Virus record (IMG/VR): IMGVR_UViG_3300044858_005015
Coordinates: 4,270-68,269 of that record
Origin: a virus
Strand: one strand, 5' to 3'
DNA: 64,000 bases
This document shows positions 11,994 to 42,658 of the stretch, piece after piece; within the stretch, counting starts at the first letter, position 1, and each line of letters opens with the position of its first letter. Position numbers and translations under genes: made by a program. A model generated the notes under the pieces. That model ran no database searches, was not told the DNA's origin, and saw nothing but the letters and a program-made list of their open reading frames with translations.

Positions 11994-12248
11994 ATGAAAA
12001 CTTGGAAAAAGCGTTTTGAATCTTCTTCTTGGTATGAATCTTATGAACAAGAAGAGGATACTAGTTCCCCTAGAACTGATCTAAAGGTTCAGGAATTATC
12101 TCTCGAAGCTATAGATGTTTGCTCTAATGAGCACTATCTAGTTATTAGCACTCAAAGATGGGCACTTGATGTAGAGGACATTGATGACTTTTGCCAACTC
12201 TTAAAAGACTTCATGAATAGAGAACTTAAACAGAAAAAAATAAAATGA
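11994..12248 (+). CDS. hypothetical acidic protein
   Basis: ORF track; TTGAGT-N17-TATACT upstream. Confidence 0.6.
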   Translation: MKTWKKRFESSSWYESYEQEEDTSSPRTDLKVQELSLEAIDVCSNEHYLVISTQRWALDVEDIDDFCQLLKDFMNRELKQKKIK

Positions 12249-12472
12249 AAGTTATTGACGAAGATACTGATATAATTAGCTTTGGAAAGTATTCTGGTAA
12301 AACTTACAGAGAGATTTGCGATATTGATCCAGAATATATTATTTGGTTGCATGAAAATGTAAAAGAAATTAAATTTAGAAAATCTTGGATTACTGCTATT
12401 GAAATGGATTTAAGAGAAGAAGCATCTGAACTTCATGATATTATTAGAGAGCATTATTATGATATTTTTTAG
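12245..12472 (+). CDS. exonuclease X C-terminal-like (FGKYxG) small domain protein
   Basis: FGKYSGKT..EI..IDPEYI.WL motif. Confidence 0.65.
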   Translation: MKVIDEDTDIISFGKYSGKTYREICDIDPEYIIWLHENVKEIKFRKSWITAIEMDLREEASELHDIIREHYYDIF

Positions 12473-12484
12473 AGATTAAACAAA

Positions 12485-12715
12485 ATGAAAACAACCTGCG
12501 AAAAAAGAGCAATTAAAATTGTAGAGCTTCAAGAAGAGCTTGAAGAGGCAAAAGAAATTATTTATAACTTTGTCTTTCCTTCAGATAGTACAGAACAAAC
12601 CCATCAAGCATTCCTTAAAAAAGCTGCTAGATTTATCGGAACACAAGCCCATTTTAGTGAGAAAAAGAACTATCTGAACAACTTGAACCTCATCCAGAAA
12701 AAATATAAACAATGA
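12485..12715 (+). CDS. hypothetical protein
   Basis: ORF track. Confidence 0.55.
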   Translation: MKTTCEKRAIKIVELQEELEEAKEIIYNFVFPSDSTEQTHQAFLKKAARFIGTQAHFSEKKNYLNNLNLIQKKYKQ

Positions 12716-12903
12716 AACCAAAAATAGTTAATTGGGAAATATATCATAAAAACTTTGAAATACTTGGAGAGTCTATTATGCATGCTGGAGGTAATCCCTT
12801 TAAAGTATTAAAAGATAATGAAGACTTTATGAGAATGCTTGCAAATAATCATATTGAAATAGGTTCTTGTGTTAAGCATAACCCAGATTTAAGCAATGAG
12901 TGA
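12712..12903 (+). CDS. hypothetical protein
   Basis: ORF track, ATGA coupling. Confidence 0.55.
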   Translation: MKPKIVNWEIYHKNFEILGESIMHAGGNPFKVLKDNEDFMRMLANNHIEIGSCVKHNPDLSNE

Positions 12904-13066
12904 TCTATGGTTTAATGTTAGATTTGGAGCATTTCATTTACAATGCAAAAAATATTCATTGACTAAATGGAATTTAAGCTATAATAGTTATTGGAGCAAT
13001 TGGAAATGGCTTAAAGAACCATTTGACATTTGCGAATTTGAATGGAAAGGATGGAAAAATGAGTAG
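12896..13066 (+). CDS. small Trp-rich hypothetical protein
   Basis: Manual translation MSDLWFNVRFGAFHLQ...WKGWKNE; fills the gap between neighbouring genes. Confidence 0.5.
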   Translation: MSDLWFNVRFGAFHLQCKKYSLTKWNLSYNSYWSNWKWLKEPFDICEFEWKGWKNE

Positions 13067-13493
13067 AAAACTAAAATTTAGAGTTTGGAACCCAACATAT
13101 CAAGAAATGTTGTATCCATCAAGCCCAACTAAAAATGGAGACTATGAAGAAAAAATTTATCTTCAATTAGATGGTCAATTAATTGGAGATTTTAAACATA
13201 CAGGTCTTATTAATTGCTCAGAACACTATGTCATTCAACAATTCACAGGAATGCTTGATAATAATGGTAAAGAGATCTATGAAGGAGATATAATCAAATA
13301 TTCAAGATTATTTGAAGCAACCTCCGATGAACCTACCCATATCAAAGAATTAACATCTTTTATTAGATATGAAAGTGCTAAATTTGGATTTGATTTAAAA
13401 GGATTTAATGATATGTTTTGTGATTTAAGTGATGGATATAATGTTGAAGTAATTGGAAATATTTTTGAAAATAAAAATACACTTGACTCCTAA
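13059..13493 (+). CDS. YopX family protein
   Basis: KFRVW...QFTGMLDNNGKEIYEGDII...EVIGNIFEN. Confidence 0.9.
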   Translation: MSRKLKFRVWNPTYQEMLYPSSPTKNGDYEEKIYLQLDGQLIGDFKHTGLINCSEHYVIQQFTGMLDNNGKEIYEGDIIKYSRLFEATSDEPTHIKELTSFIRYESAKFGFDLKGFNDMFCDLSDGYNVEVIGNIFENKNTLDS

Positions 13494-13510
13494 GACAAAT
13501 ACTATAGAAT
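13483..13510 (+). promoter_or_regulatory. sigma70-like promoter
   Basis: TTGACT-N16-TAGAAT, ATG at 13517. Confidence 0.65.
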
Positions 13511-13516
13511 AAAGTG

Positions 13517-14134
13517 ATGTCAGAAGAACTTAAAAAAATCTCTAAAGACCTTGACAAGCTTGAAGCAGAAAAAGAGACTTGGAAAGAAATGTATGAGATG
13601 CAAACTAGGCTTGTCCTCAGTCTAGAACTTGATAAGATTGAGAAAGAAAAAGAAATTGATAGCTTAAAAGAAACCCTCAAACTCCAAAAACATGTATACG
13701 ATGTAGGTGCTGAAGATTTAGAATTAGATAAAAGAATTGAATTTTTAGAAGAAACACAAAAACAATTAGCCAAATGTATTGAAAAATGTTGGAACTGCTT
13801 TGGTTATTCAAAATTCAAGATCTGGGACTTTGTAGATGGTTTAGAATTACTAGTCGAAAAGGTACAAGATGTTGTAGAGGATGAGAGAATACATCAAAAA
13901 ATAGTAGACCAGACCTATGACATCCTTACAGGGAACCCCCCTGTAGACCTACCTAAAGGTATTTTTAGCATTCCTAAATGTGTGGAAAATATGTTTGAAG
14001 AACTTAAAGATCTAGTAATTGAGAACAAAAGACTAGAAGACAAATTAGAAAGATATAGAAAAGAAAATAAAACTCTCCAAAGCTATCTCGATAACATTAA
14101 CAAAAATCTTAAACAGATGACCGGAGAAAAATAA
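13517..14134 (+). CDS. coiled-coil hypothetical protein
   Basis: E/K/L heptad-rich; ATG start after promoter. Confidence 0.65.
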   Translation: MSEELKKISKDLDKLEAEKETWKEMYEMQTRLVLSLELDKIEKEKEIDSLKETLKLQKHVYDVGAEDLELDKRIEFLEETQKQLAKCIEKCWNCFGYSKFKIWDFVDGLELLVEKVQDVVEDERIHQKIVDQTYDILTGNPPVDLPKGIFSIPKCVENMFEELKDLVIENKRLEDKLERYRKENKTLQSYLDNINKNLKQMTGEK

Positions 14135-14135
14135 T

Positions 14136-14435
14136 ATGACACTCAAAACCTTTACAACTCTCATTGAAGGACTCAAAAGCTATAGAGATAAAAAAGACAA
14201 GCTCTATACTTTAGGAATAGATATCCTTAGCTTTGATGAAGACTATTATAGAGAGGTAACAAGACCTTTGATGGTAGAAGCTTTTACTGAAGAAGGAACG
14301 GAATGGATCTATTGGTACTTGTATGAGAAGGAATCTTTATCAGGAGGACCTCTAAAAGCCTTTGACAAAGAGGGTAATGAAATCTGCTTTGACATTCCTT
14401 CATTATATGATACAATAAAAGAGTACTTAAAATGA
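14136..14435 (+). CDS. hypothetical protein
   Basis: EWIYWYLYE...I.SLYD pattern seen in small phage proteins. Confidence 0.65.
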   Translation: MTLKTFTTLIEGLKSYRDKKDKLYTLGIDILSFDEDYYREVTRPLMVEAFTEEGTEWIYWYLYEKESLSGGPLKAFDKEGNEICFDIPSLYDTIKEYLK

Positions 14436-14559
14436 CTATATGGCATGAACTGTTTCTAATTTGTTTTATTGTTGTTTGTGGTGCAATTGCAGTAGCCATG
14501 AAAGCTTTAGAGGATAAAAAATATTTTGAGGATGAAAAGAACTTGATTCAACCTATTAC

Positions 14560-14889
14560 ATGAGAGCATTTAAACTAAATTCTGATTGTCATAAAAGCTC
14601 TGGTTGGAAAATAGAAACCTGTAGAGAATTTATTATTTTTCTAAATGAGTATGCTGATATTCATTTAACAGAAACCGAACCCACTTTGATATGTTCTAAT
14701 AATGCTATGGAATTTGTTGAAAAGTTGCCTGTATTTCAATGGAGTCCTGTTAAATGTTCTGGAATATCTATACCAGATTATATAGGACATATTCAATTTA
14801 AAAACAAAAAAATAAAATTTATTAAAGATAAAGAGTTGGAAAATGTAGTTATAAAGACACAATCTGGAAACGTTATAGCTTCTAATTAA
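14560..14889 (+). CDS. hypothetical protein
   Basis: ORF track; first 15 nt identical to the next YopX gene. Confidence 0.55.
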   Translation: MRAFKLNSDCHKSSGWKIETCREFIIFLNEYADIHLTETEPTLICSNNAMEFVEKLPVFQWSPVKCSGISIPDYIGHIQFKNKKIKFIKDKELENVVIKTQSGNVIASN

Positions 14890-14890
14890 A

Positions 14891-15202
14891 ATGAGAGCAT
14901 TTAAATTTAGAGTTTACGACGAAAAGAAAAAATGTTGGGTAGAGGATTATATCCAATATTATCCAATGGATACTTTCGTTAAACAAGGTCATATTATTCA
15001 ACAATTTACAGGTATGTTGGATAAAAATCTTCAAGAAATTTATGAAGGAGATTTGGTAAAAGCCAAAACTGGTATTGTATATACATGCAAATATTCCAAC
15101 GAAGAAGCTGCTTTTATTCTTGAATTTGTAGATAGTTTTGTGTATCTTTCTGACTTTGATCATTTAGAAGTCGTGGGAAATATTTTTGAAAATGGAAATT
15201 AA
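14891..15202 (+). CDS. YopX family protein
   Basis: KFRVYD...QFTGMLDKNLQEIYEGDLV...EVVGNIFEN. Confidence 0.9.
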   Translation: MRAFKFRVYDEKKKCWVEDYIQYYPMDTFVKQGHIIQQFTGMLDKNLQEIYEGDLVKAKTGIVYTCKYSNEEAAFILEFVDSFVYLSDFDHLEVVGNIFENGN

Positions 15203-15229
15203 ATATCAAAAAAGACTGGAGATTAAAAG

Positions 15230-15670
15230 ATGAATGAAATTTACAGAGAAGAAGCAAAAAAATGGGAAGCTCTTTATGATGAGGTTTATGATGCTTTGTC
15301 AAATGAGATAGATAGAGATTCTCAAGGCGAATTAGAAACTTTGGGACAATGTGCCAAAAGAATTATCAAAGAACGAAACGAACTTATAGCTGAACTTAAA
15401 GAATACAGATCAATCGCAGAAAATATTGGAGCAGAAAAAGAAACTCTTAAACAGTTATCTCAATGGGAAGACTTGGTCTTTAGCCATCAAGAAGATTTTG
15501 AAAAAGAATTTTGTAGTGATAATGAACTTTTGGGTTTGTGGTTTGGTTCAGAATGGGTTAAAATCTGGTACATGCATAGTGAGGGAATACATTATACTAA
15601 TAGTTTCCCCATAAAAATCTTTTTAGAATTTGTGGAAAAATATGAAAGACACATATATTGCAAAAATTAA
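15230..15670 (+). CDS. hypothetical protein
   Basis: ORF track. Confidence 0.55.
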   Translation: MNEIYREEAKKWEALYDEVYDALSNEIDRDSQGELETLGQCAKRIIKERNELIAELKEYRSIAENIGAEKETLKQLSQWEDLVFSHQEDFEKEFCSDNELLGLWFGSEWVKIWYMHSEGIHYTNSFPIKIFLEFVEKYERHIYCKN

Positions 15671-15685
15671 AATTTATTATACAAT
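15658..15685 (+). promoter_or_regulatory. sigma70-like promoter of the queC operon
   Basis: TTGCAA-N16-TACAAT, ATG at 15692. Confidence 0.6.
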
Positions 15686-15691
15686 ATCGTA

Positions 15692-16426
15692 ATGTCTAAT
15701 ACTAAATCAGTTGTTATATACAGCGGGGGGATGGATTCAACAGTAATCTTACATCATGCTATTAAGAACTTTGAAGATGTTTATTGTTTAACATATAACT
15801 ATAATCAAAGACATAAACTTGAAATTGATAAAGCTATTAATTATACAGCTGATTTAGGTGTTGGTGAAGGTCAAAAGATTCAACAACATATTATTGTTGA
15901 TTTGACATTTTACGCTAAATTAGCTACTGCATCTGCTTTAACTAATCCTAATATTAATGTGCCTAAAATGGCGGAGGTAATTGGAGAAGCTCAAACTTTG
16001 GCGTATGTTCCAAATCGTAATACAGTAATGCTTTCAATTGCTGCTGGATATGCTGAATCTATTGGAGCAGAAACTATTCTTTATGGTGCTGCTATGGCAG
16101 ACGACACGAGCGGTTTTTGGGATTGTACAAATCATTACCTTGAACTTTATAACTCTATTTTAGCGCTTAACCGAAAGAATACTATTCAAGTTCAGGCGCC
16201 GCTTATTAAGATGTCTAAGAAGGAAATTATTCAATATGGCGTAGAGCTCGGTATTAATTTTTCTAAGACGTTAACCTGCTATAATGGGGAAGAGGTGGGC
16301 TGTTCTCAATGCCCGGCTTGTGCCGCTCGTTTGCGCGGCTTTATAGACGCAAAGTTAATTGATCCGGTTAAGTATGCTATAGACATTGACTGGACTAAGT
16401 ATGGGTGTCAGCCTATAATGTCCTAA
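15692..16426 (+). CDS. queC: 7-cyano-7-deazaguanine synthase QueC
   Basis: SGGMDS PP-loop, YNQRH, YVPNRN, FWDC, TCY..CSQCPAC Zn site. Confidence 0.92.
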   Translation: MSNTKSVVIYSGGMDSTVILHHAIKNFEDVYCLTYNYNQRHKLEIDKAINYTADLGVGEGQKIQQHIIVDLTFYAKLATASALTNPNINVPKMAEVIGEAQTLAYVPNRNTVMLSIAAGYAESIGAETILYGAAMADDTSGFWDCTNHYLELYNSILALNRKNTIQVQAPLIKMSKKEIIQYGVELGINFSKTLTCYNGEEVGCSQCPACAARLRGFIDAKLIDPVKYAIDIDWTKYGCQPIMS

Positions 16427-17070
16427 TGTGCTCTGTAGCAGGCAGTTCTAACCTCGAGAAAGCATATACTCTTTACAGGCTAGGTCTTGATAGAGGTTAT
16501 CAGTCATCAGGGTTCTTAGGAGTGACCCAGAACAACTTTGTCTTACTAAAGCAAAAGGATATCTTTGAACTCGACTATCTCAAAGAAGAGATGAAGCGTA
16601 CAGAGGAGTTCCCTGTCTACTGTTTGTTTCATTCAAGAGCTCCGACCAATACTGTTAGTCAAAGTTTTTCACCTAAGACTACACATCCCTTTTCGTTTAA
16701 GAATTGGTTTGTGGCACAGAACGGAATCATTCAGAACTTTAATGAACTGAAGACTGAAGCTACATGTATGGCCTTTAATGTCGACTCGGCTATGGTTCCC
16801 TATGACTTGTATTGGAAGAGAGGCGACATAGCTAAGACCTACGAACGTTATAAAGGCCTTTTAACTTCCTGGATCTATAATTCTATTACTGGTGAGATCT
16901 TCTTAGTTAAAGCCGGCTCCTCTCTACATATGGACGAAGATAGCTTTTGTTCAGTCTCTTTTGAAGGTTCTCATATAGTTGAACAAGACGGAGTAGTGAC
17001 TAAATTTAACGGAATGCAGTTTGAAATGTACCAGACCTTTAACTATGACAACCCCTATTTTATTTTATGA
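16426..17070 (+). CDS. class II (Ntn) glutamine amidotransferase
   Basis: Likely start is the ATG overlapping the queC stop (TAATG), giving MCSVAG with Cys2; RG..S.G, HSRAPT, HPF, QNGII.NF, VDS motifs. Confidence 0.85.
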   Translation: MCSVAGSSNLEKAYTLYRLGLDRGYQSSGFLGVTQNNFVLLKQKDIFELDYLKEEMKRTEEFPVYCLFHSRAPTNTVSQSFSPKTTHPFSFKNWFVAQNGIIQNFNELKTEATCMAFNVDSAMVPYDLYWKRGDIAKTYERYKGLLTSWIYNSITGEIFLVKAGSSLHMDEDSFCSVSFEGSHIVEQDGVVTKFNGMQFEMYQTFNYDNPYFIL

Positions 17071-17792
17071 AACAAGTATTACTCGTAACCGCAACTAAAG
17101 CTAAGACTCTAGAAGAGTTTCAGCAAAGACCTCTAGCTAAGTCTTTACAAGTGCTCTGTGACAGGAGATACGACAAGTCAATGTTCGACTTTGAAGTAGT
17201 TAAGGATAACTCAACCGGCTTACCTGAAGTCTACAACCGCTATCTGACTGAAGAGAATAAGGACAAATTACTACTTTTTGTACACGACGACTTGGAGATC
17301 CATGACTTGAACTTAGTAGAGAAGCTTAACCAGTCGCCTTGGGATATTACCGGTCTGGCGGGAGGTGCTACGTTTGAACTAAAAGATAAGAACTTATGGC
17401 ACATTTGTTCAAAGCGTGAATCTCAAACCGGCTCTGTCAGTCATCCTCTCTGTTGGCAGGAAGGCAATCAGCTCAAAGTAGACAATACCCGACAGATTGT
17501 TACCACCTTTGGACCGACCCCTATGAGAGCTCTAATTCTAGATGCACTGTTTATGTGTGTTAACGTTGAGAGAGCTCTAGAGGTAGGCTTTAAATTGGAC
17601 GAAGACTTTAAGTTTCACCACTGGGACATTTCTTCCTGTCTTTTGGCTAATGAGAAGAAGCTAACTATGGGCACCTATCCTGTTTACTGTCTGCATCATG
17701 GCCTGGGCAATTCGTTTATGTCTCAGGACTGGGAAGATTCTAATAACATTTTTAAAGATAAATGGCAAAGTGCCTTGAAGAAGTCTGAATAG
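17067..17792 (+). CDS. GT-A fold glycosyltransferase (Glyco_tranf_2_5/StrF-like)
   Basis: YN, FVHDD, GLAG, LDALF, FHHWD, H..G motifs. Confidence 0.8.
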   Translation: MKQVLLVTATKAKTLEEFQQRPLAKSLQVLCDRRYDKSMFDFEVVKDNSTGLPEVYNRYLTEENKDKLLLFVHDDLEIHDLNLVEKLNQSPWDITGLAGGATFELKDKNLWHICSKRESQTGSVSHPLCWQEGNQLKVDNTRQIVTTFGPTPMRALILDALFMCVNVERALEVGFKLDEDFKFHHWDISSCLLANEKKLTMGTYPVYCLHHGLGNSFMSQDWEDSNNIFKDKWQSALKKSE

Positions 17793-17812
17793 CCTTTATA
17801 TTATTACACACT

Positions 17813-18400
17813 ATGATTATTAAACGCGATAAACTAAAAGAGTTAACTGGATCTGATTACTACTGCGGTAAAGCGCTACATGAACGCTTAGCTTACAAGC
17901 TTTACAAGAAGGAAGTTAACCCTTTGGGCAATATTATTTCTTTTATTGCTCCCATGACTGTGATCGAGAACCTTATCGACCTCGAGGATTCTCTTAACAA
18001 AGACTATATCTATTCTGAGTCAGCTATGAATTTCCTTATGGAGATTCCTGGTAAGGATCTTTGGGGTGGTACCTTGTTCCAGCGCTTGCTTAATGCTCAG
18101 GTCGGCTCTTTACTCTGTTCAAAGTATCTGGAGACTGATGGTTATGTTGACGGAGACGACATTATGGTCAAGGACGGAGATGAGTATAAGAAGGCTTCAG
18201 TTAGTATTGCAGCTGAGAAGAACGGAGCCGTTCTAATCCATCTCGGTATTAATATTAATGCCGGTCCTAAAGCACCTTCATTTGCCTATTCAACCAACCT
18301 TTCTGAAGAGAAGGCTGTTGACTTTATGACTGAAGTTGAAGGTATCTTTTATGAGATTCTAACTTCGGTCTTTGTAGCGACCACGAAAGTTGTAGTGTGA
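17813..18400 (+). CDS. DUF366 family protein (class II aaRS/biotin-lipoate ligase-like fold)
   Basis: DLED, NF..E, QRLL, DGDDIMV, K.SVSIA, IHLGINI motifs recalled for DUF366. Confidence 0.75.
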   Translation: MIIKRDKLKELTGSDYYCGKALHERLAYKLYKKEVNPLGNIISFIAPMTVIENLIDLEDSLNKDYIYSESAMNFLMEIPGKDLWGGTLFQRLLNAQVGSLLCSKYLETDGYVDGDDIMVKDGDEYKKASVSIAAEKNGAVLIHLGININAGPKAPSFAYSTNLSEEKAVDFMTEVEGIFYEILTSVFVATTKVVV

Positions 18401-18750
18401 CGATATTTGACTATCTTAAAGACGTTGTTGTGTTCAAGAAGGGCAGTCTGCCTTTAGACGAGTACATTCCGTTTCTCATCAATCGGTGGCTGTCCTTCTT
18501 TACCCCTCAAGTCTGTCCTGCTATTAACGAGAGTGTTAATAGACTGGGTAGTATGGACAAGGAGCAGCATTACAGGCTTTTGCTAAGGCTTTTTCCTAAG
18601 CAGAAGTTTATGCCTCGGATCAACTATATTAAGAAAGTCAAACACGAGAAGACTAAAGAGGATGATAGAATAGAACATCTATCCCAGAACCTAGAACTGT
18701 CACAGAGAGAAACGAAACTATTACTGGAACTTACTGAACAATTAACTTAA
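18397..18750 (+). CDS. T4 gp62-like clamp loader small subunit
   Basis: FDYL...Y.PFLINRWLS...N.....DKEQHY..L pattern. Confidence 0.7.
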   Translation: MTIFDYLKDVVVFKKGSLPLDEYIPFLINRWLSFFTPQVCPAINESVNRLGSMDKEQHYRLLLRLFPKQKFMPRINYIKKVKHEKTKEDDRIEHLSQNLELSQRETKLLLELTEQLT

Positions 18751-18762
18751 ATTTAAACATAT

Positions 18763-19176
18763 ATGATAGCTAACTCAATGGCCGGCCTTGCTGCCGAAAA
18801 CAACGGAATCGCACCTGAAGATTATAAAGACTTACCCTTACCGGAAGACTACGAAATTGTAGAACTTTTGTCTAATGTAATTTCTGCAGAGTACGTTGAT
18901 ACTAGTCCAGATGGAGAATCGATTGTTCGTAACGGAATTTATCTACCCAAGTCAGTAATCGATCACAGGGCTTGGCGTGTAGCTAGAGTAATTCTTGCAG
19001 GCCCGGCATGCAAGCAAGTTAAGCCAAATGACATTATTATTTTCCCGGGAGATAGAGGATTGCAGTCAATTCAAAAGAATGGTAAGATGGTTATTTTTCT
19101 ATCTGAAGAACGCATCTTCGGTATTTGTAGACCGATGGCAAAAGAAGAATCGAAGAAAGATAAAAAGAAGAAATGA
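18763..19176 (+). CDS. GroES-like co-chaperonin (T4 gp31 analogue)
   Basis: GIYLP...RVILAGP..KQVKPNDIIIF...FLSEERIFG. Confidence 0.7.
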   Translation: MIANSMAGLAAENNGIAPEDYKDLPLPEDYEIVELLSNVISAEYVDTSPDGESIVRNGIYLPKSVIDHRAWRVARVILAGPACKQVKPNDIIIFPGDRGLQSIQKNGKMVIFLSEERIFGICRPMAKEESKKDKKKK

Positions 19177-35745: not shown

Positions 35746-36738
35746 ATGAGCGATACCTTAGTTATTAATACCTCTACAGAGTATATTAATCTGTCAGTCA
35801 TTACTACGACAGAGCAATATAATGTGTCTGTTGTTGATGGTACATTAGCTCTTTGGGGTACTATATTTGGATCCCTGTCGACTCAAACTGATCTCTGGAG
35901 AGAGTTATCTGCTAAGGCTTTAGAAATAGATCTGCAGAGCTTATCCGGTCAGGTGGTAGATTTGGAAACCTTTATAGCAGCTATCTCCGGTACTTGGAAT
36001 GGAGGACAGCAAGCATTAACCGTTTTGACAAGCAACTCCGCTAATTGGGATTTTAGCTATGATGTAGCTACTTATGTCCAGGCTAACTCTGGTAGCTGGG
36101 AAGAGTCAGCTGAAATTATTCCTACAGTTACTAATTACCTTTCTACCGTCCCGGTTACCCTTAGCTCTGCAGATGTCAGAGGGCAGTTGTTGTCGTCAGG
36201 CACCGATCTTTTTGATATATTTTTAACCACAGAAACTGACAGTCAAACTCTAAGCTATACTCCCTCATCATACAGCTTATCTATATCTAATGGCAACACG
36301 GTTAATTTGTCTTCTATTAATACTACCTTTGCTGCTAACTCAGGAAAGTATGAAAATGTTTATAGTAATGTTGTAAGCAATTCAGCTAACTGGAATACAG
36401 CATTTGATAGATCAACTGTTTTCAGCTCTGTATCAGGCCGTTATAATAGTTCTTCAACTGCAGTTGAGTCAAATTCAGCTAACTGGAATAATGCTTATAA
36501 TACCTCTCTAGCCTATCAAAGTGTATCAGGTACTTTTGCTACCAACTCAACAGTAAGTTCTGTATCAGGTCTTTTAACACCTTTAACCCTTACAAGAACT
36601 TTAACTAGTCAGCTATTACCTACAACCACTTATCAACAAGCTTCCGGTAATTGGCAAGACACTTATACTAATTTTTCCCAAAATTCTGCTACATATTGCA
36701 CCAAATCTCTAGCTTTAGCTTTTGCAATAGCATTATAA
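35746..36738 (+). CDS. tail fibre protein with SANWNxAY repeats
   Basis: Repeated SANW/SGNW units; LSISNGNTVNLS. Confidence 0.7.
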   Translation: MSDTLVINTSTEYINLSVITTTEQYNVSVVDGTLALWGTIFGSLSTQTDLWRELSAKALEIDLQSLSGQVVDLETFIAAISGTWNGGQQALTVLTSNSANWDFSYDVATYVQANSGSWEESAEIIPTVTNYLSTVPVTLSSADVRGQLLSSGTDLFDIFLTTETDSQTLSYTPSSYSLSISNGNTVNLSSINTTFAANSGKYENVYSNVVSNSANWNTAFDRSTVFSSVSGRYNSSSTAVESNSANWNNAYNTSLAYQSVSGTFATNSTVSSVSGLLTPLTLTRTLTSQLLPTTTYQQASGNWQDTYTNFSQNSATYCTKSLALAFAIAL

Positions 36739-36750
36739 ATATTAAACATA

Positions 36751-37491
36751 ATGAAGACCTTAATAACCAATTATACATTTTCACCGAGTACCAAACAGGT
36801 GTTTTTGTCTGGTTTTTCTTATAATATTCTCCAGGATCAGTTATTATTGATAACCAATGTTTCTCAGAATATTATAATTTATAATTTCGCTGACCCCACA
36901 GCTGGAGGCAATATAGTTAATAATGTTGTTACCTTGTCGGCTGATACCACATCAATGCTATCTTCGGATAGACTACAAATATTTTTAGATGATTTAAGAG
37001 ATCCTCTATACGGTGTTTACCAAGACGCTACTTCGTATTCCCCAGTTACTTCTGTATCTGCTGTTCCTTCTCTAACAGGGGTAAATGCTAATCTCACCAT
37101 TGATGTCCAAACTGGAGGTGCCATGGCCCTTCAAGGTGACTTAGATAAAGATATAGATTCAGTTACTACCTTTGATGTCGGGTATGCTTCAGTATCAAAC
37201 TTTTTATCAGCACAGACTCTAGGAACCGTTCCTTCAGGCACCGGTGTTCAGGTCTTGTCCGCTAATGCTAATAGAATTACATTATTTGGTCAGAATTTAG
37301 GAACTCAACCTTTGCTCGTTAAATACGGTCTTGGTTGTAATGTTTCTTCTTTTAATTTTATCTTGTACCCGGGTACAGCAGGTGGAGACGGGAGAGGGGA
37401 AAAGTTTTCTGATGATCGCTATAAAGGAGATGTATCAGTTAATACTACAACAGGTCTGTCAGCACAATATATCTTTTGGGAGGGAGTTTAA
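36751..37491 (+). CDS. tail fibre-associated structural protein
   Basis: YTF.P..K...LLLITNV..N.IIYNFADP N-terminal domain. Confidence 0.65.
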   Translation: MKTLITNYTFSPSTKQVFLSGFSYNILQDQLLLITNVSQNIIIYNFADPTAGGNIVNNVVTLSADTTSMLSSDRLQIFLDDLRDPLYGVYQDATSYSPVTSVSAVPSLTGVNANLTIDVQTGGAMALQGDLDKDIDSVTTFDVGYASVSNFLSAQTLGTVPSGTGVQVLSANANRITLFGQNLGTQPLLVKYGLGCNVSSFNFILYPGTAGGDGRGEKFSDDRYKGDVSVNTTTGLSAQYIFWEGV

Positions 37492-37494
37492 TCT

Positions 37495-38466
37495 ATGCCT
37501 ATTACCTTTGGAGGAAACCCAACGCCGTCTGATGTTTTAAGACCTATTACTCCTATAACTATACCCTCTCATGTCTTTTTACAAGATTTTTTTATGAGTG
37601 GAGGCTCGACTTCGGGAACTTTAGGCCAAATAGGATGGAATCTAGCAGGTACGGGAGCGGGAGCAGCTGTAGGTGGAGCAAGTTCCGGTTTAATCATAGC
37701 TCCAGCTGCTGGTATTACTTCATCTTTAAATACAGCAGCTGTTTTTCTTCCAGGAAATAACTATACAGGCGCGGCTCTCATAAATGCAAATCCTTCTACA
37801 CCTACAATAACACAGCACACTATTGTAGCAAGAAATGTAAGAACTTTTACCAATAACTCATCTTTTTCTTTTGGTTTCGGGCAACAGTCAGGTGGCACAG
37901 CTTCTCCTAATAAGGTAATTCATGAAAACAGTATAGGTGTAGCTTATGTATCCCCTGCATCTGCTACTTGGACTTCAAATTTTGGTGCATCAGTAGGATA
38001 CTCAGTTGTTCCTACAATTTCTAACGGCAGAAAGTATATTTGTACTACAGCAGGCACTACAGACTTGACAGAACCAACATGGCCATTAAATTACGGAACA
38101 ACCGTAACTGACGGTACAGTAACTTGGACTAATGCAGGTTATTCAGGTAATCCTAACTATATATGTTTTACTACAGGAACCGATCCTATTAGTACTGCTA
38201 ATATTTTAGTTACTAATTTTGTGGCACCGACCGCGCAATCTGGCCAGCCAATAACTGATTTTAGCGTGAGAGTAGACGCTCTCAGTGCGTATTTTAGCAT
38301 TAACAATTCAGCTGAAGTCGCTCTCCCCAGAGTAGCAGGTGCTAATTCCTTTACTCCTTATTTTGCTGTTAGAAATGATTTAGGTATATCTCCCGCAGGT
38401 GCTGCTTGTACATCTTTTAGATACTTTGGTTACTACGCACCTCGAAGAGCTGTAACAGATCCATAA
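37495..38466 (+). CDS. tail fibre/receptor-binding protein with CBM-like insert
   Basis: NGRKYICTTAGTT...EPTWP...GTTVTDGTVTWT. Confidence 0.65.
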   Translation: MPITFGGNPTPSDVLRPITPITIPSHVFLQDFFMSGGSTSGTLGQIGWNLAGTGAGAAVGGASSGLIIAPAAGITSSLNTAAVFLPGNNYTGAALINANPSTPTITQHTIVARNVRTFTNNSSFSFGFGQQSGGTASPNKVIHENSIGVAYVSPASATWTSNFGASVGYSVVPTISNGRKYICTTAGTTDLTEPTWPLNYGTTVTDGTVTWTNAGYSGNPNYICFTTGTDPISTANILVTNFVAPTAQSGQPITDFSVRVDALSAYFSINNSAEVALPRVAGANSFTPYFAVRNDLGISPAGAACTSFRYFGYYAPRRAVTDP

Positions 38467-38477
38467 TATTTCTATAA

Positions 38478-39383
38478 ATGCGCTACTATGGTATACAAAA
38501 TGAAGTTAAAGCATATTTGAATAGACTCCAAAGTGAAACATCTATTCAAATAACCCCTTCTATTGTAAAGACCTTAAATGATAGAGTAGAATCTTTAAAG
38601 AAGTCTGGTGTCTGGTCACAGTTTGGCTTAGGTTTTAATGATACAGATGCTGATAATTATTTTCAAAGAGCCTCAGTAAATGATGTAATAGGGAGATCAG
38701 AAGTATGTTGGTTTGTTCGAGGAATAAAGTCTTTAGGTCTGTGGCAGAATATGGTCAGTTGGCCTTTGAGAAGTTATCAGAATGCAGGAACAGGAAGCAC
38801 TGTTTATAGTTTAGGGGGTGGAGGTATATCAAATGGTACTATGGTTAATTCTCCAACTTGGGGCATAGATGGTATTACTTTTTCAGCAACATCTTCTCAG
38901 ACTAAAACAGATACATTAGGTCTTCCACCTACACCATTTAGTTCTATTGTAGTTGGTAAAAGAGTTTTAGGTACGGGTACAGCATCGTGGGAATATGTAG
39001 GTACCGGTTCAGAAGGTACTCGATCAGTAGCAAGAAGAGTATATGCTAATAATTCTATGGGCATAAGCATACAAGGTGTAGGTTATACTATGTTAGTGAA
39101 TACAAACGATCAAACATTTACAGATAATATCGAATATGTTCATATGACAATGCCCTCTCTCGTAAATGCAAATGCTGAAGTTTTTATAAATTTAACAAAA
39201 CCAGCCCAAACAGCAGGAGGAGCTAATTGGGGAGTAAATGCTTCAACAGGAGGTATATTTCGAGTTTTAGGAGATTTGATTTTTCAAACTACGTTTCATG
39301 CAACATTTAACATTAGTATAAACAATGTTAACTTTTACAACCTCTACAAATCAACCCTCGGCTCCAACCTCGGACTACCATAA
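38478..39383 (+). CDS. putative receptor-binding paralogue 1
   Basis: Shared N-module (FV.GIK.LGLW..MV.WP.RS..NAGTGSTVYSLGG), variable beta-rich body, LYK.TLG..L.LP end. Confidence 0.7.
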   Translation: MRYYGIQNEVKAYLNRLQSETSIQITPSIVKTLNDRVESLKKSGVWSQFGLGFNDTDADNYFQRASVNDVIGRSEVCWFVRGIKSLGLWQNMVSWPLRSYQNAGTGSTVYSLGGGGISNGTMVNSPTWGIDGITFSATSSQTKTDTLGLPPTPFSSIVVGKRVLGTGTASWEYVGTGSEGTRSVARRVYANNSMGISIQGVGYTMLVNTNDQTFTDNIEYVHMTMPSLVNANAEVFINLTKPAQTAGGANWGVNASTGGIFRVLGDLIFQTTFHATFNISINNVNFYNLYKSTLGSNLGLP

Positions 39384-39386
39384 CAT

Positions 39387-40211
39387 ATGGCAAAACGATA
39401 CTACAATTTAGAAAAAGAGACAAAAGAGTATTTGAAGGCTTGTGAGGCTAAGAATGTAGCTCCGTTTAGAGCTATTAAAGATATTAATGATATTTTTATA
39501 AATCAGAAAGCTAATAACCGATTAGGTTCTTCTTTTATAACTAATCTAAATTTAAACGGGGCTGTTTTATTTTCAGACGCTTCTTTACAGAGTTCTTATA
39601 CAGGCACAGGTAACTCTTTTGGAGATATAAGCAGTTTTAATAACAATGGTACCATATCAGGTCAAATATTTACAAATGACGGCTTAGGTAGTTTTTTATT
39701 CAATAACAACTCCATAACATTTCCGAATACAATAAATGGTATTCAGCCTTTACAGACAAGTTATGCAATATCAGTATGGATCAAATTAGTCACTAGACCG
39801 TTAATTGCCAACTACTATGGTTTTTTTGCCCATCAATCATTAGCATCAGTAAGTGCAGGTACCCCTAGATTAGAAATAGGTCAAGATATAAGCGGTAATT
39901 TATATTTTGCAACTTATAACCACTCTACAGGTGTTGTAAATAACGGTGCTTCAATTTTTATGTTGCCTTTAGGGACTTGGATTAATATTTGTGTAGTAGC
40001 GGGGTCAAATTTAAACAGAACTTTTGTAAACGGGCAACTCGTTAATTCTGTTTCTGTAACTTCTAACTTTCCTGATTTCACTCATCCCACTTTTTTGGGA
40101 TATAGAAACTATAATGGTTTAGCATCTAATTTAATAATTTATAATAGAGAGCTTACAGCACTTGAAGTACTCCAAAACTACAACGCATTAAGAGGGAGGT
40201 TCGGTTTATGA
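39387..40211 (+). CDS. putative receptor-binding paralogue 2, LamG/ConA-like
   Basis: RYYNLEKETKEYL start; ISVWIK...W.NI.VV...FVNGQ...IYNRELTA.EV.QNYNA.RGRFGL. Confidence 0.75.
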   Translation: MAKRYYNLEKETKEYLKACEAKNVAPFRAIKDINDIFINQKANNRLGSSFITNLNLNGAVLFSDASLQSSYTGTGNSFGDISSFNNNGTISGQIFTNDGLGSFLFNNNSITFPNTINGIQPLQTSYAISVWIKLVTRPLIANYYGFFAHQSLASVSAGTPRLEIGQDISGNLYFATYNHSTGVVNNGASIFMLPLGTWINICVVAGSNLNRTFVNGQLVNSVSVTSNFPDFTHPTFLGYRNYNGLASNLIIYNRELTALEVLQNYNALRGRFGL

Positions 40212-41020
40212 TTTCATCCAAATCATACGGCTTACAAAATGAGACAAGGCAGTACCTAAGAAGGTTATATGCTTACGGGAGAGAACTAGCTCCTACAGAT
40301 GTTGCTGATATAGATAATTTTATAAAGGGTTTAAAACAATTGAATTTCTGGGGTAATGTTATTTGTTGGCCTATGAGATCTATACATAACATAGGTACAG
40401 GTTCTACAGTTCTTAGTTTAGGTAAAATGAATGATGGTTACCAAGGAAACGGAACACTATTAAATAGCCCTACATGGAGTTCTAATGGTATTGTTTTTGA
40501 TATTGGTAGTATACATAGTATGCAGTGGACTAATTTTAGATATCCTTTGTATTTTATGACCCAAACAACTCTTTCTGTCAATACTTCAGTTGCTACAGAT
40601 ATAAACCTACTTGGTACCAGCGTAGCAAGTATTGGTAGTCCGAACAGTTTAACTCTTAAAATAAGCAATTTACAAGGTAGAACGTGGAGAACGTGGAGAT
40701 ATCTTACAAGTTCAAATCACGATCTTATATTTACAAACAATTACGACACATCTTGGAGAACTATTACATGTTATTTAAACAACACATTTAAAGCTGTTAG
40801 AAACAATAAAACTCAAATAGGTAGTACCTCGATAGACGCAACGTTTTTACAGAGAACTATAACAGACTGTATCGGGGCAGCGACTGCCAGTACCACGTTT
40901 AGATTTCATGGTACAATTGCTTCTCATTTAATAACTAGAGCACCAATTTCGTCAACAGAAAGTGACAATCTTCATGATCTAGTTAAAACCACAATAGGTA
41001 AAGGATTGAACTTACCATAA
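40208..41020 (+). CDS. putative receptor-binding paralogue 3
   Basis: Shared N-module and GKGLNLP end. Confidence 0.7.
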   Translation: MISSKSYGLQNETRQYLRRLYAYGRELAPTDVADIDNFIKGLKQLNFWGNVICWPMRSIHNIGTGSTVLSLGKMNDGYQGNGTLLNSPTWSSNGIVFDIGSIHSMQWTNFRYPLYFMTQTTLSVNTSVATDINLLGTSVASIGSPNSLTLKISNLQGRTWRTWRYLTSSNHDLIFTNNYDTSWRTITCYLNNTFKAVRNNKTQIGSTSIDATFLQRTITDCIGAATASTTFRFHGTIASHLITRAPISSTESDNLHDLVKTTIGKGLNLP

Positions 41021-41024
41021 CACT

Positions 41025-41849
41025 ATGTCCACACCCAGACAATACCAATTTGATGTAGATACTAAGCGTTATCTCAACAGAGTTAACACTTATAGGTCTT
41101 TAAACGGCTTGCCAGATATTCAGAAGTCTGATGCAGCTGATATAGACAACTTTGTGATTGGGTTGAAGGACTTAAATTTATGGCAAAACACAACACTTTG
41201 GCTCATGAGATCTGTTCACAATATAAGTGTTGGTTCAAATCTTTTATGCACCGGAGGAGGGCCTCAGTTAGATATAACTCTTATCAACTCTCCGTCATGG
41301 ACAACAAATGGCATAACCTTCAATAGAAGTCTTGATCAATACGGCTTGACAAGAGTAGTTGATGTTTTAAACGATTTTGGTGCCTTTGTTGTTGTTGATC
41401 ATGATAGAAACAATGGTGGTTCTTTTATTACTCAAGATAGGTGGTCAGGGGCTTCTGGAGACGGTGGGTTTAATTGGCTTTTACAAAGAAACGATTCAAC
41501 TTCAGTACAGTTATTTATCGGTAATAATACTACAGGATCAGCTTTTACGAATATTACAGCACCAACATCAGGTTTTATGTTCCATGGAGGCATAAAATCT
41601 ATAAGAGGTAATTCACATAGTGTGAACGGGGGTGCGGTTTCTACTGTAGGGTCTGTTAGTCAATTTTTAGGCACCAAAAGAATGGCTATAAGTTTGGCCA
41701 GATCAGGGTGGGGGTCTGGTAGTGCTATGTCAGGAACTATGGCTGCAGCATGTTATTTAAATACCAGCTTATCTCCCACCCAACAAACATTTCAAAGTTT
41801 AAATAGCTTGTTAAGAGCTACCATTTGTAAAGACATTTTAACCACATAA
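41025..41849 (+). CDS. putative receptor-binding paralogue 4
   Basis: Shared N-module DIDNFVIGLKDLNLW...MRSVHN. Confidence 0.7.
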   Translation: MSTPRQYQFDVDTKRYLNRVNTYRSLNGLPDIQKSDAADIDNFVIGLKDLNLWQNTTLWLMRSVHNISVGSNLLCTGGGPQLDITLINSPSWTTNGITFNRSLDQYGLTRVVDVLNDFGAFVVVDHDRNNGGSFITQDRWSGASGDGGFNWLLQRNDSTSVQLFIGNNTTGSAFTNITAPTSGFMFHGGIKSIRGNSHSVNGGAVSTVGSVSQFLGTKRMAISLARSGWGSGSAMSGTMAAACYLNTSLSPTQQTFQSLNSLLRATICKDILTT

Positions 41850-41854
41850 CAACC

Positions 41855-42658
41855 ATGCCCAGAATAAGAACATACGGATTAGATATAGACACAATCAGAT
41901 ATGCCCAGAGGGTCAAGTCTGGTTCTGGTACTACTATACTCCCTGAACCTTTAAAGCAGATTAATAAGTTTGTTGTAGGGGTTAAGAAGCTGGGGTTATG
42001 GAACTCTATGGTCTGCTGGCCTATGAGAAGTATTCATAATGCGGGAACTGGTAGTACAGTTTATAGTTTAGGGGGCTTGCAGATATCGAATGGCACTATG
42101 GTCAATTCTCCTGTTTGGGGTGATAAAGGAATTAAATTTGGAGATAATTCAAATCGGCATATGACCACAGGTATAACCCCCGCTCTTAATTCTAATTACA
42201 ATGTTTTTGCTGCTATGGAATGCTTGCCCCAAGGGGTTGCTTTTAACGTGATGGGGTCAACGAGAAACGGTACTACAGGTGGATTCACAATGGCTCAATT
42301 TTGGAATAGTGCTTGGAACAATATTGCATGGGTGTCTAGTGGTACTTGGGCAGAGAATAGAATAACACCCCCCATAACAGACGGTACGTACAATACTGCT
42401 TCGTTTAGAGTGAATTGTACACCCACCCACGTAACAGGACTGTCAATAAACAGCAATGTTGAACAAACAATCACAGGCACGGGCGTGGTGCAGATTGCTC
42501 ATAGCCCAATGATTATAGGTAATGAAGGACCAACAAGCACTCGTTCTTTTGACGGAAATCTTGCCTTTACATCCTATATAGTAACATCTACTATACCTGT
42601 AACCTTCTTACACACCCTTTATAAAAGATCTCTAGGTCTAGGTTTAAACATCCCTTAA
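41855..42658 (+). CDS. putative receptor-binding paralogue 5
   Basis: Shared N-module and LYKRSLGLGLNIP end. Confidence 0.7.
   Translation: MPRIRTYGLDIDTIRYAQRVKSGSGTTILPEPLKQINKFVVGVKKLGLWNSMVCWPMRSIHNAGTGSTVYSLGGLQISNGTMVNSPVWGDKGIKFGDNSNRHMTTGITPALNSNYNVFAAMECLPQGVAFNVMGSTRNGTTGGFTMAQFWNSAWNNIAWVSSGTWAENRITPPITDGTYNTASFRVNCTPTHVTGLSINSNVEQTITGTGVVQIAHSPMIIGNEGPTSTRSFDGNLAFTSYIVTSTIPVTFLHTLYKRSLGLGLNIP

What the first reader, a model, noticed from the sequence alone, without database searches (positions are those of the whole stretch)
15692..18400. QueC-amidotransferase-glycosyltransferase-DUF366 cluster beside the clamp loader: candidate new 7-deazaguanine hypermodification system
Seen: queC, a Cys2 class II amidotransferase (TAATG overlap), a GT-A glycosyltransferase (ATGA overlap) and DUF366 run head to tail into the gp62-like clamp loader. 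Established: QueC converts CDG to preQ0, archaeal Gat-QueC fusions make archaeosine, and phages put dPreQ0/dPreQ1/dG+/dADG into DNA to evade restriction. Inference: coupling a glycosyltransferase and a ligase-fold DUF366 suggests further decoration of a deazaguanine base (e.g. glycosylation or acylation), which I do not know as a described pathway. folE, queD, queE and dpdA are not in this window.
Basis: partly seen in the sequence, partly recalled or inferred. Interest (0 to 1): 0.85.

Follow-up and report, generated by a model that had tools for sequence, protein, structure and literature searches.

The report
Phage deazaguanine genes plus two riders
A T4-like phage fragment carries two genes for making a modified guanine for its DNA, next to a sugar-transferase gene and a ligase-like gene; only the ligase-like gene tracks the guanine pathway in related phages.

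Summary
queC (15692-16426), a Cys2 class II amidotransferase (16426-17070), a GT-A glycosyltransferase (17067-17792) and DUF366 (17813-18400) run head to tail into a gp62-like gene, with TAATG, ATGA and GTGA overlaps.

The window is 32% of a T4-like phage genome.
- **Rest of the pathway:** complete relatives encode it elsewhere: QueD, QueE-like, bimodular QueF, and a distant DpdA3-type transglycosylase (98% hhalign to phiST CGPG_00065). In the closest complete relative a DpdN-like formyltransferase sits beside the DpdA3-like gene. This is the published DpdA3 type of 7-deazaguanine DNA modification, with a predicted dPreQ1 or formyl-dPreQ1 base.
- **QueC plus GATase:** the same pair already exists in Vibrio phage KVP40.
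- **Glycosyltransferase:** not specific to the pathway. Three complete relatives keep it, with every invariant residue, but have no QueC, QueD, DpdA3-like or DUF366 gene.
- **DUF366:** the fold resembles biotin and lipoate ligases. It was found next to the GT in 0 of 26 loci without deazaguanine genes and 32 of 41 loci with them. These counts reflect only 3-4 evolutionary events.

A glycosylated deazaguanine is unsupported. A DUF366-made acyl derivative is an open, testable idea.

The parts
15692..16426 (+). queC, 7-cyano-7-deazaguanine (preQ0) synthase, 244 aa
   Evidence: PF06508 E 3.8e-60. TIGR00364 equivalog 187 bits, above the 150.3 cut-off. SGGMDS PP-loop visible in the translation. Four invariant Cys (C196, C204, C207, C210) across 11 orthologues.
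16426..17070 (+). Stand-alone class II (Ntn) glutamine amidotransferase, 214 aa, Cys2
   Evidence: PF13522 29.3 bits against 27. ATG at 16426 inside TAATG, giving M-C. C2 invariant in 11 orthologues. Full-length homologue of KVP40.0125 (hhalign 98.0%, E 2.1e-13).
17067..17792 (+). GT-A fold glycosyltransferase-like protein (PF13712 family), 241 aa, invariant H73-D74-D75
   Evidence: Orthologues hit PF13712. AF2 model pLDDT 94.8. Foldseek: 2qgi majastridin-UDP E 2.7e-9, then AvpGT, GlfT2, TarP. Invariant residues listed.
17813..18400 (+). DUF366 (PF04017/COG2029) protein, 195 aa, biotin/lipoate-protein-ligase-like fold
   Evidence: PF04017 E 8.2e-21. PDB 2ddz E 7.9e-11. Model pLDDT 78.3. Foldseek: 2ddz TM 0.74, then LplA and BPL chains at E about 1e-6, TM about 0.5. 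Weak motif alignment to M. jannaschii BPL 2ej9 (E 0.08).
18397..18750 (+). gp62-like small clamp-loader subunit, 117 aa; start overlaps the DUF366 stop (GTGA)
   Evidence: phrog_225 E 1.9e-8. Overlap seen. Follows DUF366 in 79 of 80 IMG/VR loci.
18763..19176 (+). gp31/GroES-like co-chaperonin; downstream anchor of the conserved slot
   Evidence: phrog_3188 E 5.2e-6. Found downstream of gp62-like in most of the 80 loci.

Best explanation
The cluster is two things placed side by side, not one four-step pathway.

**(1) queC and the GATase.**
- They are the window's share of a DpdA3-type 7-deazaguanine DNA modification system.
- QueC converts CDG to preQ0. The amidotransferase most likely supplies ammonia from glutamine, as a split form of Gat-QueC.
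- The remaining genes lie outside this 32%-complete fragment: QueD, QueE, QueF, a DpdA3-like DNA transglycosylase, sometimes FolE and a DpdN-like formyltransferase.
- The predicted DNA base is dPreQ1 or formyl-dPreQ1.

**(2) The GT-A enzyme and DUF366.**
- They occupy a conserved slot between the primase and gp62/gp31.
- The GT is a backbone gene. Relatives without any deazaguanine genes also keep it, so its substrate is not deazaguanine-specific.
- DUF366 occurs only where deazaguanine genes occur. It is the better candidate for an extra tailoring enzyme.
- By fold it would adenylate a carboxylate and transfer the acyl group to an amine, such as the aminomethyl of preQ1.

**Shown:** gene identities, folds, synteny and co-occurrence counts.
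**Inferred:** every enzymatic step, the DNA target, and any role of DUF366.
For: - **Pathway in relatives.** QueC in 11 of 12 relatives found through DUF366. QueD in 5 of 5. FolE in 3 of 5. QueF_N in 8 of 13, including 3 of 3 complete genomes.
- **DpdA3-like gene.** Present in 10 of 12 relatives, including 3 of 3 complete genomes, with the phiST control found. hhalign of A5 against phiST CGPG_00065: 98.0%, E 1.8e-13, 238 columns.
- **Neighbours of the DpdA3-like gene.** It sits next to an AAA_28 protein and QueF in G008 and G013. In G006 the order is DpdA3-like, Formyl_trans_N (E 6e-10), AAA_28, QueF. [quoted passage not shown]
- **G006 inventory.** The whole genome holds QueC, GAT, GT, DUF366, DpdA3-like, formyltransferase, QueF and a QueE-like gene.
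- **Precedent for the pair.** KVP40 has QueF-like, QueC, then a stand-alone class II GAT upstream of gp31, and that GAT is homologous over its full length.
- **GT is independent of the pathway.** G017, G018 and G021 (all 100% complete) have the GT. They have no DpdA3-like, QueC, QueD or DUF366 (own HMMs for G017 and G018). The 43 GTs from loci without deazaguanine genes keep the invariant residues, apart from D74 in 3 of them.
- **DUF366 tracks the pathway.** Adjacency table: 32 (both), 9 (deazaguanine genes only), 0 (DUF366 only), 26 (neither); 17 undetermined. G007 has DUF366 with QueC, QueD, FolE, QueF and DpdA3-like but no GT or GAT.
Against: - No DpdA, QueD, QueE or QueF gene is seen in the own record, which is 32% complete. 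The system is inferred from relatives whose DUF366 is 47-88% identical.
- The DpdA3-like assignment rests on a PHROG hit of E 8e-16 to 6e-4 and one profile comparison. Pfam sees nothing in these proteins.
- DpdA3 activity itself has never been shown in vitro; Cui et al. report failed attempts (passage).
- The GT does travel with QueC-GAT away from gp62 in G008, G009, G010 and G012. It sits directly after the DpdA3-like gene in 8 loci. Both observations argue for a link.
- The DUF366 association reduces to 3-4 changes on the GT tree and 2-3 independent pairs. It has no statistical weight.
- DUF366 is translationally coupled to gp62 in nearly every locus.
- Its three cellular homologues found have no Que genes within 8 kb.
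Confidence: 0.55

Rival explanations
1. All four genes form one pathway that makes a further decorated (glycosylated and/or acylated) 7-deazaguanine in phage DNA.
For: - Tight head-to-tail coupling with overlapping stop and start codons.
- The four genes stay together with a changed order (QueC-GT-GAT-DUF366) in L007, L049 and six further loci.
- QueC-GAT-GT moves as a unit to the uvsX-gp41 region in G008, G009, G010 and G012.
- A DpdA3-like gene lies directly upstream of the GT in 8 loci.
- One structural neighbour, AvpGT, is a nucleoside glycosyltransferase.
- No paper in the library describes such a product.
Against: - Three complete genomes keep the GT, with the same invariant residues, without any QueC, QueD, DpdA3-like or DUF366 gene.
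- G007 has the pathway and DUF366 but no GT or GAT.
- preQ0, preQ1, ADG and G+ carry no hydroxyl group, so glycosylation would have to be an N-glycosylation (my own chemical reasoning).
Confidence: 0.2
2. QueC and the GATase boost preQ0/preQ1 supply for tRNA queuosine in the infected cell rather than for DNA. GT and DUF366 are unrelated neighbours.
For: - No TGT or DpdA gene in the own record.
- In nt-1, which I recall to be a KVP40 relative, only about 0.1% of G is modified (Hutinet 2019, PMC6884629, passage).
Against: - A DpdA3-like gene beside QueF occurs in 3 of 3 complete DUF366-bearing relatives.
- Cui et al. 2023 treat DpdA as the signature of DNA modification.
- Hutinet 2019 states that no QueA, QueG or QueH homologue was found in the viruses they analysed. 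I did not test these here.
Confidence: 0.08
3. DUF366 has nothing to do with deazaguanine. It is a backbone gene coupled to gp62, for example a replication or cofactor-ligase accessory. Its co-occurrence with Que genes is shared ancestry.
For: - DUF366 is followed at once by gp62-like in 79 of 80 loci, including 48 with no GT or GAT hit nearby. Its stop overlaps the gp62 start.
- It lies 34-38 kb from QueC in G008-G010.
- Only 3-4 state changes occur on the tree.
- Cellular homologues have no Que neighbours.
- Cultured DpdA3 phages lack it: tblastn found 1 record of 50,697, and that one is not in a Que context.
Against: - 0 of 26 loci without deazaguanine genes have DUF366, against 32 of 41 loci with them.
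- Within the large GT clade that lacks deazaguanine genes, the two subclades that carry QueC and GAT also carry DUF366.
- A second, divergent QueC lineage (25-28% identity) also lies just upstream of DUF366 in 7 loci.
Confidence: 0.3

Closest known systems
[quoted passage not shown] 2023, PMC10516641)
   Same: Relatives of the window carry a DpdA3-like gene (98% hhalign to phiST CGPG_00065), QueC, QueD, a QueE-like gene and bimodular QueF. G006 also carries a PF00551 formyltransferase next to the DpdA3-like gene, like DpdN.
   Different: - The lineage here is T4-like, with genomes of about 200-236 kb, and the genes are scattered over several loci.
- It has an extra stand-alone class II GATase, a PF13712 GT and DUF366. 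tblastn found neither the GT nor a Que-linked DUF366 in 50,697 phage records.
- The DpdA3-like proteins are only remotely similar (PHROG E 8e-16 to 6e-4).
QueC plus stand-alone GATase of Vibrio phage KVP40 (KVP40.0124/.0125)
   Same: The gene pair is the same, in the same order, in a T4-like genome upstream of gp31. The GAT is homologous over its full length, including the C-terminal NPYF motif.
   Different: KVP40 has no GT or DUF366 homologue. The neighbouring KVP40 proteins .0120 and .0122 have no homologue in the 13 records tested here (12 relatives plus the own record). KVP40 QueC is only 34% identical.
Gat-QueC fusion of Enterobacteria phage 9g, which makes dG+
   Same: A class II GATase combined with QueC. 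The QueC domain is 28% identical, E 7e-20.
   Different: Here they are two separate genes. The Gat parts align only over 38 residues (E 4e-4). 9g uses DpdA1, which is absent here. Relatives here carry QueF, which points to preQ1 rather than G+.
PH0223 (PDB 2ddz) and the biotin/lipoate protein ligase superfamily
   Same: DUF366 matches 2ddz by sequence (E 7.9e-11) and by fold (TM 0.74). The next structural neighbours are LplA and BPL chains. The GDDIMV, KKASVSI and GININ segments align with the corresponding segments of M. jannaschii BPL (PNDIMV, KKLGGIL, GINVN).
   Different: No function is known for any DUF366 protein. No paper in the library holds DUF366, COG2029 or PF04017. TM to the ligases is only about 0.5, and the sequence match to BPL is not significant (E 0.08).
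Majastridin (PDB 2qgi/2nxv) and PF13712 GT-A glycosyltransferases
   Same: Best structural match (E 2.7e-9, TM 0.67), with bound UDP in 2qgi. The DxD-type HDD motif is invariant.
   Different: Sequence identity is 14%. The acceptor of majastridin is, to my recollection, unknown. The window protein itself does not reach any Pfam threshold.

Membership tests
QueC (TIGR00364 / PF06508) | Score above the curated equivalog cut-off | tested here: met
   187 bits against 150.3; PF06508 203 bits.
QueC (TIGR00364 / PF06508) | PP-loop SGGxDS motif and a C-terminal cysteine cluster (the features are named from recall and from the passage on SGGxDS in PMC13329287) | tested here: met
   SGGMDS in the translation. 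C196, C204, C207 and C210 are invariant in 11 orthologues.
Class II (Ntn) glutamine amidotransferase | Catalytic Cys directly after the initiator Met, and a family score above the cut-off | tested here: met
   M-C start at 16426. C2 invariant. PF13522 29.3 bits against 27.
Class II (Ntn) glutamine amidotransferase | A fused or partner synthase domain that uses the ammonia | tested here: inconclusive
   The protein stands alone at 214 aa. QueC is the adjacent candidate partner, by gene order only.
Gat-QueC fusion (archaeal / phage 9g) | GATase and QueC in a single polypeptide | tested here: not met
   Two ORFs with a stop codon between them. The Gat parts are only weakly alike.
GT-A glycosyltransferase, PF13712 | GT-A fold with a DxD motif | tested here: met
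   Model pLDDT 94.8. Many GT-A enzymes among the 119 PDB chains matched at E 0.001 or better. H73-D74-D75 invariant in 26 sequences.
GT-A glycosyltransferase, PF13712 | Pfam gathering score | tested here: inconclusive
   The window protein has no hit. The L003 orthologue scores 24.8 against 27; the L007 orthologue 35.7 against 27. Many listed relatives carry a precomputed PF13712 annotation.
DUF366 (PF04017) | Pfam gathering score | tested here: met
   74.7 bits against 29.9.
Biotin/lipoate protein ligase (BPL_LplA_LipB) | Family-level sequence match and adenylate-binding motifs | tested here: inconclusive
   No Pfam BPL hit. Profile match to 2ej9 at E 0.08 only. Fold match at TM about 0.5.
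DpdA-dependent 7-deazaguanine DNA modification system | A DpdA-family transglycosylase in the same genome | tested here: inconclusive
   None in the own 68-kb record, which is 32% complete. A DpdA3-like gene is present in 10 of 12 relatives. PF01702 cannot be used for this test because it misses the 9g DpdA control.
DpdA-dependent 7-deazaguanine DNA modification system | Modified base present in virion DNA | not testable with these tools
   Needs LC-MS/MS or raw long-read signal.
T4 gp62 clamp-loader subunit | Sequence match, and adjacency to gp44 as in T4 | tested here: inconclusive
   phrog_225 E 1.9e-8. The gp44-like gene lies about 100 kb away in G006 and is not followed by a gp62 gene. 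T4 gp62 itself gave no phmmer hit.

The most novel reading that the evidence does not exclude
DUF366 is a new biotin/lipoate-ligase-like tailoring enzyme of the 7-deazaguanine pathway. It would adenylate a carboxylic acid and attach it to the aminomethyl group of preQ1, either as free base or already in DNA. Alternatively it would activate the carboxylate of CDG. Either route would give an undescribed acylated 7-deazaguanine in the DNA of an abundant uncultured T4-like phage lineage, and the first function for the COG2029 family.
Probability: 0.2. Interest if true: 0.8.

Novelty: new variant of a known kind. Interest (0 to 1): 0.5.

Why it matters
- **Reach of DpdA3 systems.** If the reading is right, DpdA3-type guanine replacement extends to a large uncultured T4-like lineage. 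More than 555 IMG/VR contigs carry DUF366 and more than 430 carry the GT.
- **A first lead for DUF366.** The finding offers a functional lead for a family with a solved structure and no known role.
- **A caution about synteny.** Overlapping, co-oriented genes in T4-like cargo slots need not share a pathway. The glycosyltransferase is the most eye-catching gene here, and it is the one the comparative data separate from the pathway.

Tried and rejected
- **PF01702 (TGT) as a DpdA detector.** Searches were negative in the own record and 10 relatives. I rejected them as evidence because the same search misses the DpdA of phage 9g.
- **Other DpdA families.** DpdA1 (phrog_887, phrog_7068; the 9g control was found) gave 0 of 13. 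DpdA4 (PF20314) gave 0 of 13. The two KVP40 families tried as DpdA2/ArcS candidates (phrog_14221, phrog_10773) gave 0 of 13. Which of these two, if either, is DpdA2 is my guess.
- **Radical_SAM PF04055 as a QueE detector.** It hit only G007. A QueE-like gene in G006 was found by phmmer instead.
- **Complex prediction of QueC with the GATase.** No verdict (score 0.03 against a mark of 0.32). It counts neither way.
- **hmC glucosylation as a role for the GT.** T4 gp42, alpha-gt and beta-gt gave no phmmer hit at 1e-4 in G006, G017, G018 or the window. This test has low sensitivity.
- **Cellular context of DUF366.** Only 3 loci were recovered, all cyanobacteria-like MAGs, with no Que genes by my own HMMs.
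- **DNA similarity to 50,697 phage records.** No match.
- **Protein Atlas.** It only repeated the family names.
- **Closed or unavailable sources.** Supplements were closed, so I could not see Supplementary Data S1 of Cui et al. 2023. It lists uncultured phages with DpdN and DpdA3 and may already include members of this lineage.
Full report
**1. Observation**

The window belongs to a 68,269-bp IMG/VR virus record that CheckV rates 32% complete. It is T4-like. It has a gp20 portal (PF07230, E 7e-101), a gp62-like gene and a gp31/GroES-like gene.

The five ORFs of the finding are present. Their junctions are exactly as described:
- queC to GAT: TAATG.
- GAT to GT: ATGA.
- GT to DUF366: a 20-nt spacer.
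- DUF366 to gp62-like: GTGA.

Family assignments:
- **queC** is a bona fide QueC (TIGR00364, 187 bits against a cut-off of 150.3).
- **GAT** begins M-C and reaches the PF13522 cut-off.
- **The third protein** has no Pfam hit itself. An orthologue reaches PF13712. Its AF2 model (pLDDT 94.8) is a GT-A fold, closest to majastridin with bound UDP. It has an invariant HDD motif.
- **DUF366** reaches PF04017 and matches PDB 2ddz.

**2. Is there a DNA-insertion enzyme?**

PF01702 found nothing. However, the same search misses the DpdA of phage 9g, so those negatives carry no weight.

I took family models from named phages and searched 12 relatives that had been found through DUF366, plus the own record:

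| Model | Source | Result |
|---|---|---|
| DpdA1 (phrog_887, phrog_7068) | phage 9g | 0 of 13; control found |
| DpdA4 (PF20314) | named in Cui et al. 2023 | 0 of 13 |
| phrog_14221, phrog_10773 | two KVP40 neighbours of QueC | 0 of 13 |
| DpdA3 (phrog_20335) | phiST CGPG_00065 | 10 of 12 relatives; 3 of 3 complete genomes (G006, G007, G008); not the own fragment |

A profile of six of the DpdA3-like proteins aligns with phiST DpdA3 over 238 columns (hhalign 98.0%, E 1.8e-13).

The DpdA3-like gene is followed by an AAA_28 P-loop protein and a bimodular QueF in G008 and G013. In G006, the closest complete relative, the order is DpdA3-like, PF00551 formyltransferase, AAA_28, QueF, then a 122-aa ORF and uvsX.

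Other pathway genes in relatives:
- QueF_N in 8 of 13 records.
- QueD in 5 of 5.
- FolE in 3 of 5.
- A QueE-like gene in G006.

Cui et al. 2023 describe this same set: DpdA3, FolE to QueF, and the PF00551 enzyme DpdN. [quoted passage not shown] They regard DpdA as the signature of DNA modification (sections 17 and 19). The lineage therefore very probably modifies its DNA, in an already described way.

**3. QueC plus GATase**

KVP40 has QueF-like, QueC (KVP40.0124) and a 202-aa protein that the record notes as PF00310, upstream of gp31. That protein is a full-length homologue of the window's GAT (hhalign 98.0%).

The pair is therefore not new. Its role is inference: ammonia supply to QueC, or conversion of preQ0 to G+ as proposed for Gat-QueC in Hutinet 2019 (passages).

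**4. Do the GT and DUF366 belong to the pathway?**

*Sampling through DUF366.* Of 597 pattern matches, 555 were confirmed and 80 loci kept. In these:
- DUF366 is followed at once by gp62-like in 79 of 80 loci.
- 32 loci also have the GT, and these also show QueC and GAT wherever the upstream sequence is held.
- 48 loci have no GT or GAT hit. Seven of them have a divergent QueC (25-28% identity) just upstream.
- In G008, G009 and G010 the QueC-GAT-GT triad lies 34-38 kb from DUF366. In G008 and G009 its position is mapped between uvsX and a DnaB-like helicase. G012 also holds GAT and GT close together.
- G007 is complete and has the pathway and DUF366, but no GT or GAT.

*Sampling through the GT.* More than 430 contigs were confirmed and 80 kept. 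Scanning them with my own HMMs gave six arrangements:

| Arrangement | Loci |
|---|---|
| QueC-GAT-GT-DUF366-gp62 | the window and its close relatives |
| QueC-GT-GAT-DUF366-gp62 | 6 |
| DpdA3-like-GT-DUF366-gp62 | 7, plus 1 without DUF366 |
| QueC-GAT-GT alone | 6 |
| GT-gp62 with nothing else | about 40 |
| GT alone | 3 |

Three complete genomes of the last two kinds are G017, G018 and G021. None has a DpdA3-like gene, QueC, QueD or DUF366 (own HMMs for G017 and G018). Their GTs keep every residue that is invariant in the family, apart from D74 in 3 of 43. The GT therefore has a function that needs no deazaguanine.

*Counts for DUF366.* On 84 GT rows, adjacency of deazaguanine genes against adjacency of DUF366 gives:
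- 32 with both.
- 9 with deazaguanine genes only.
- 0 with DUF366 only.
- 26 with neither.
- 17 rows could not be judged.

On the GT tree this is only 3 changes for the deazaguanine genes and 4 for DUF366, with 2-3 independent pairs. The direction is consistent but there is no statistical power.

Ascertainment matters. G006-G016 were found through DUF366. Among the complete genomes found through the GT, G022 has both traits and G017, G018 and G021 have neither.

The slot lies between a gp61-like primase and gp62. The gp44-like gene is elsewhere.

**5. Mechanism**

*Most likely (0.55).*
- QueC with the GATase makes preQ0.
- QueF reduces it to preQ1.
- The DpdA3-like enzyme exchanges it for G in DNA.
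- In some members a DpdN-like enzyme formylates it.
- DUF366 may add a further step. Its fold is that of enzymes that adenylate a carboxylate and acylate an amine. The motif segments GDDIMV, KKASVSI and GININ align with the corresponding segments of M. jannaschii BPL (PNDIMV, KKLGGIL, GINVN), but only at E 0.08.
- The GT acts on something else that remains unknown.

*Rivals.*
- A tRNA-directed role for QueC and the GATase (0.08).
- A DUF366 unrelated to the pathway (0.3). This last one overlaps with the main reading.

**6. Comparison and novelty**

The closest known system is the DpdA3/QueF/DpdN system of Cui et al. 2023. The closest known gene pair is KVP40.0124/.0125.

The new elements are:
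- the T4-like host lineage;
- the association with DUF366;
- a PF13712 GT that no record among 50,697 phage records matches.

No paper in the searched library holds DUF366 as a whole word, COG2029 or PF04017. None reports a glycosylated deazaguanine in phage DNA (I saw listings only for most hits).

**7. Verdict**

The inference of a deazaguanine DNA system is right. The claim of a new glycosylating hypermodification is not supported. DUF366 is a modest, testable lead.

Noticed in passing
window 12000-16000: A low-GC stretch (30% against about 40% elsewhere) sits just upstream of queC and is packed with small + strand ORFs. Two of them (13023-13493 and 14891-15202) are paralogues that share the ...IQQFTGMLD...EIYEGD...V(I/V)GNIFEN... 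segments.
   Followed up: no
L121 4973-5680 (G008): The GATase of G008 has no ATG, GTG or TTG before its catalytic Cys. The reading frame shows Y-I-C-G-I-F-G-S, so an Ile codon probably serves as the start.
   Followed up: partly
G022:C1:213005-213847: The DpdA3-like gene of this complete genome is matched in two pieces with one in-frame TGA between them. This could be a pseudogene, a sequencing error or recoding.
   Followed up: no
L136 2250-2819, L133 2234-2788, L145 3468-4028: An AAA_28 P-loop (kinase-like) protein is conserved between the DpdA3-like gene and QueF in G008, G013 and G006. Weaker homologues lie about 2.5 kb upstream of the GT in G017 and G018, which lack deazaguanine genes.
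   Followed up: partly
L068 4990-9956 (G008): Directly upstream of DUF366, G008 carries a run of six genes: Methyltransf_24-like, GT47-like, GT1/GT4, Methyltransf_24, Glyco_trans_1_2 and a weak GT1. A GNAT acetyltransferase lies between GAT and GT in the same genome.
   Followed up: no
L001 (MW495066, Microcystis phage MaAM05): The only phage-database record with a DUF366 homologue shows it among cell-like genes (secF, glyS, mtgA, fabI, fliM). The three cellular homologues are from cyanobacteria-like MAGs. In one of them (L261), as in MaAM05, the gene follows a large gene of about 730 aa, which the MaAM05 record annotates as mtgA, a peptidoglycan transglycosylase.
   Followed up: partly
window 35746-42658: Eight consecutive + strand ORFs of 246-330 aa lie downstream of the portal gene. 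None has a Pfam hit except one Laminin_G_3 domain. They are probably structural or fibre proteins.
   Followed up: no
phage 9g record (L125), method note: The six-frame PF01702 search does not detect the DpdA of phage 9g, whereas phrog_887 does. Absence of a TGT hit is therefore no evidence against a phage DpdA.
   Followed up: yes
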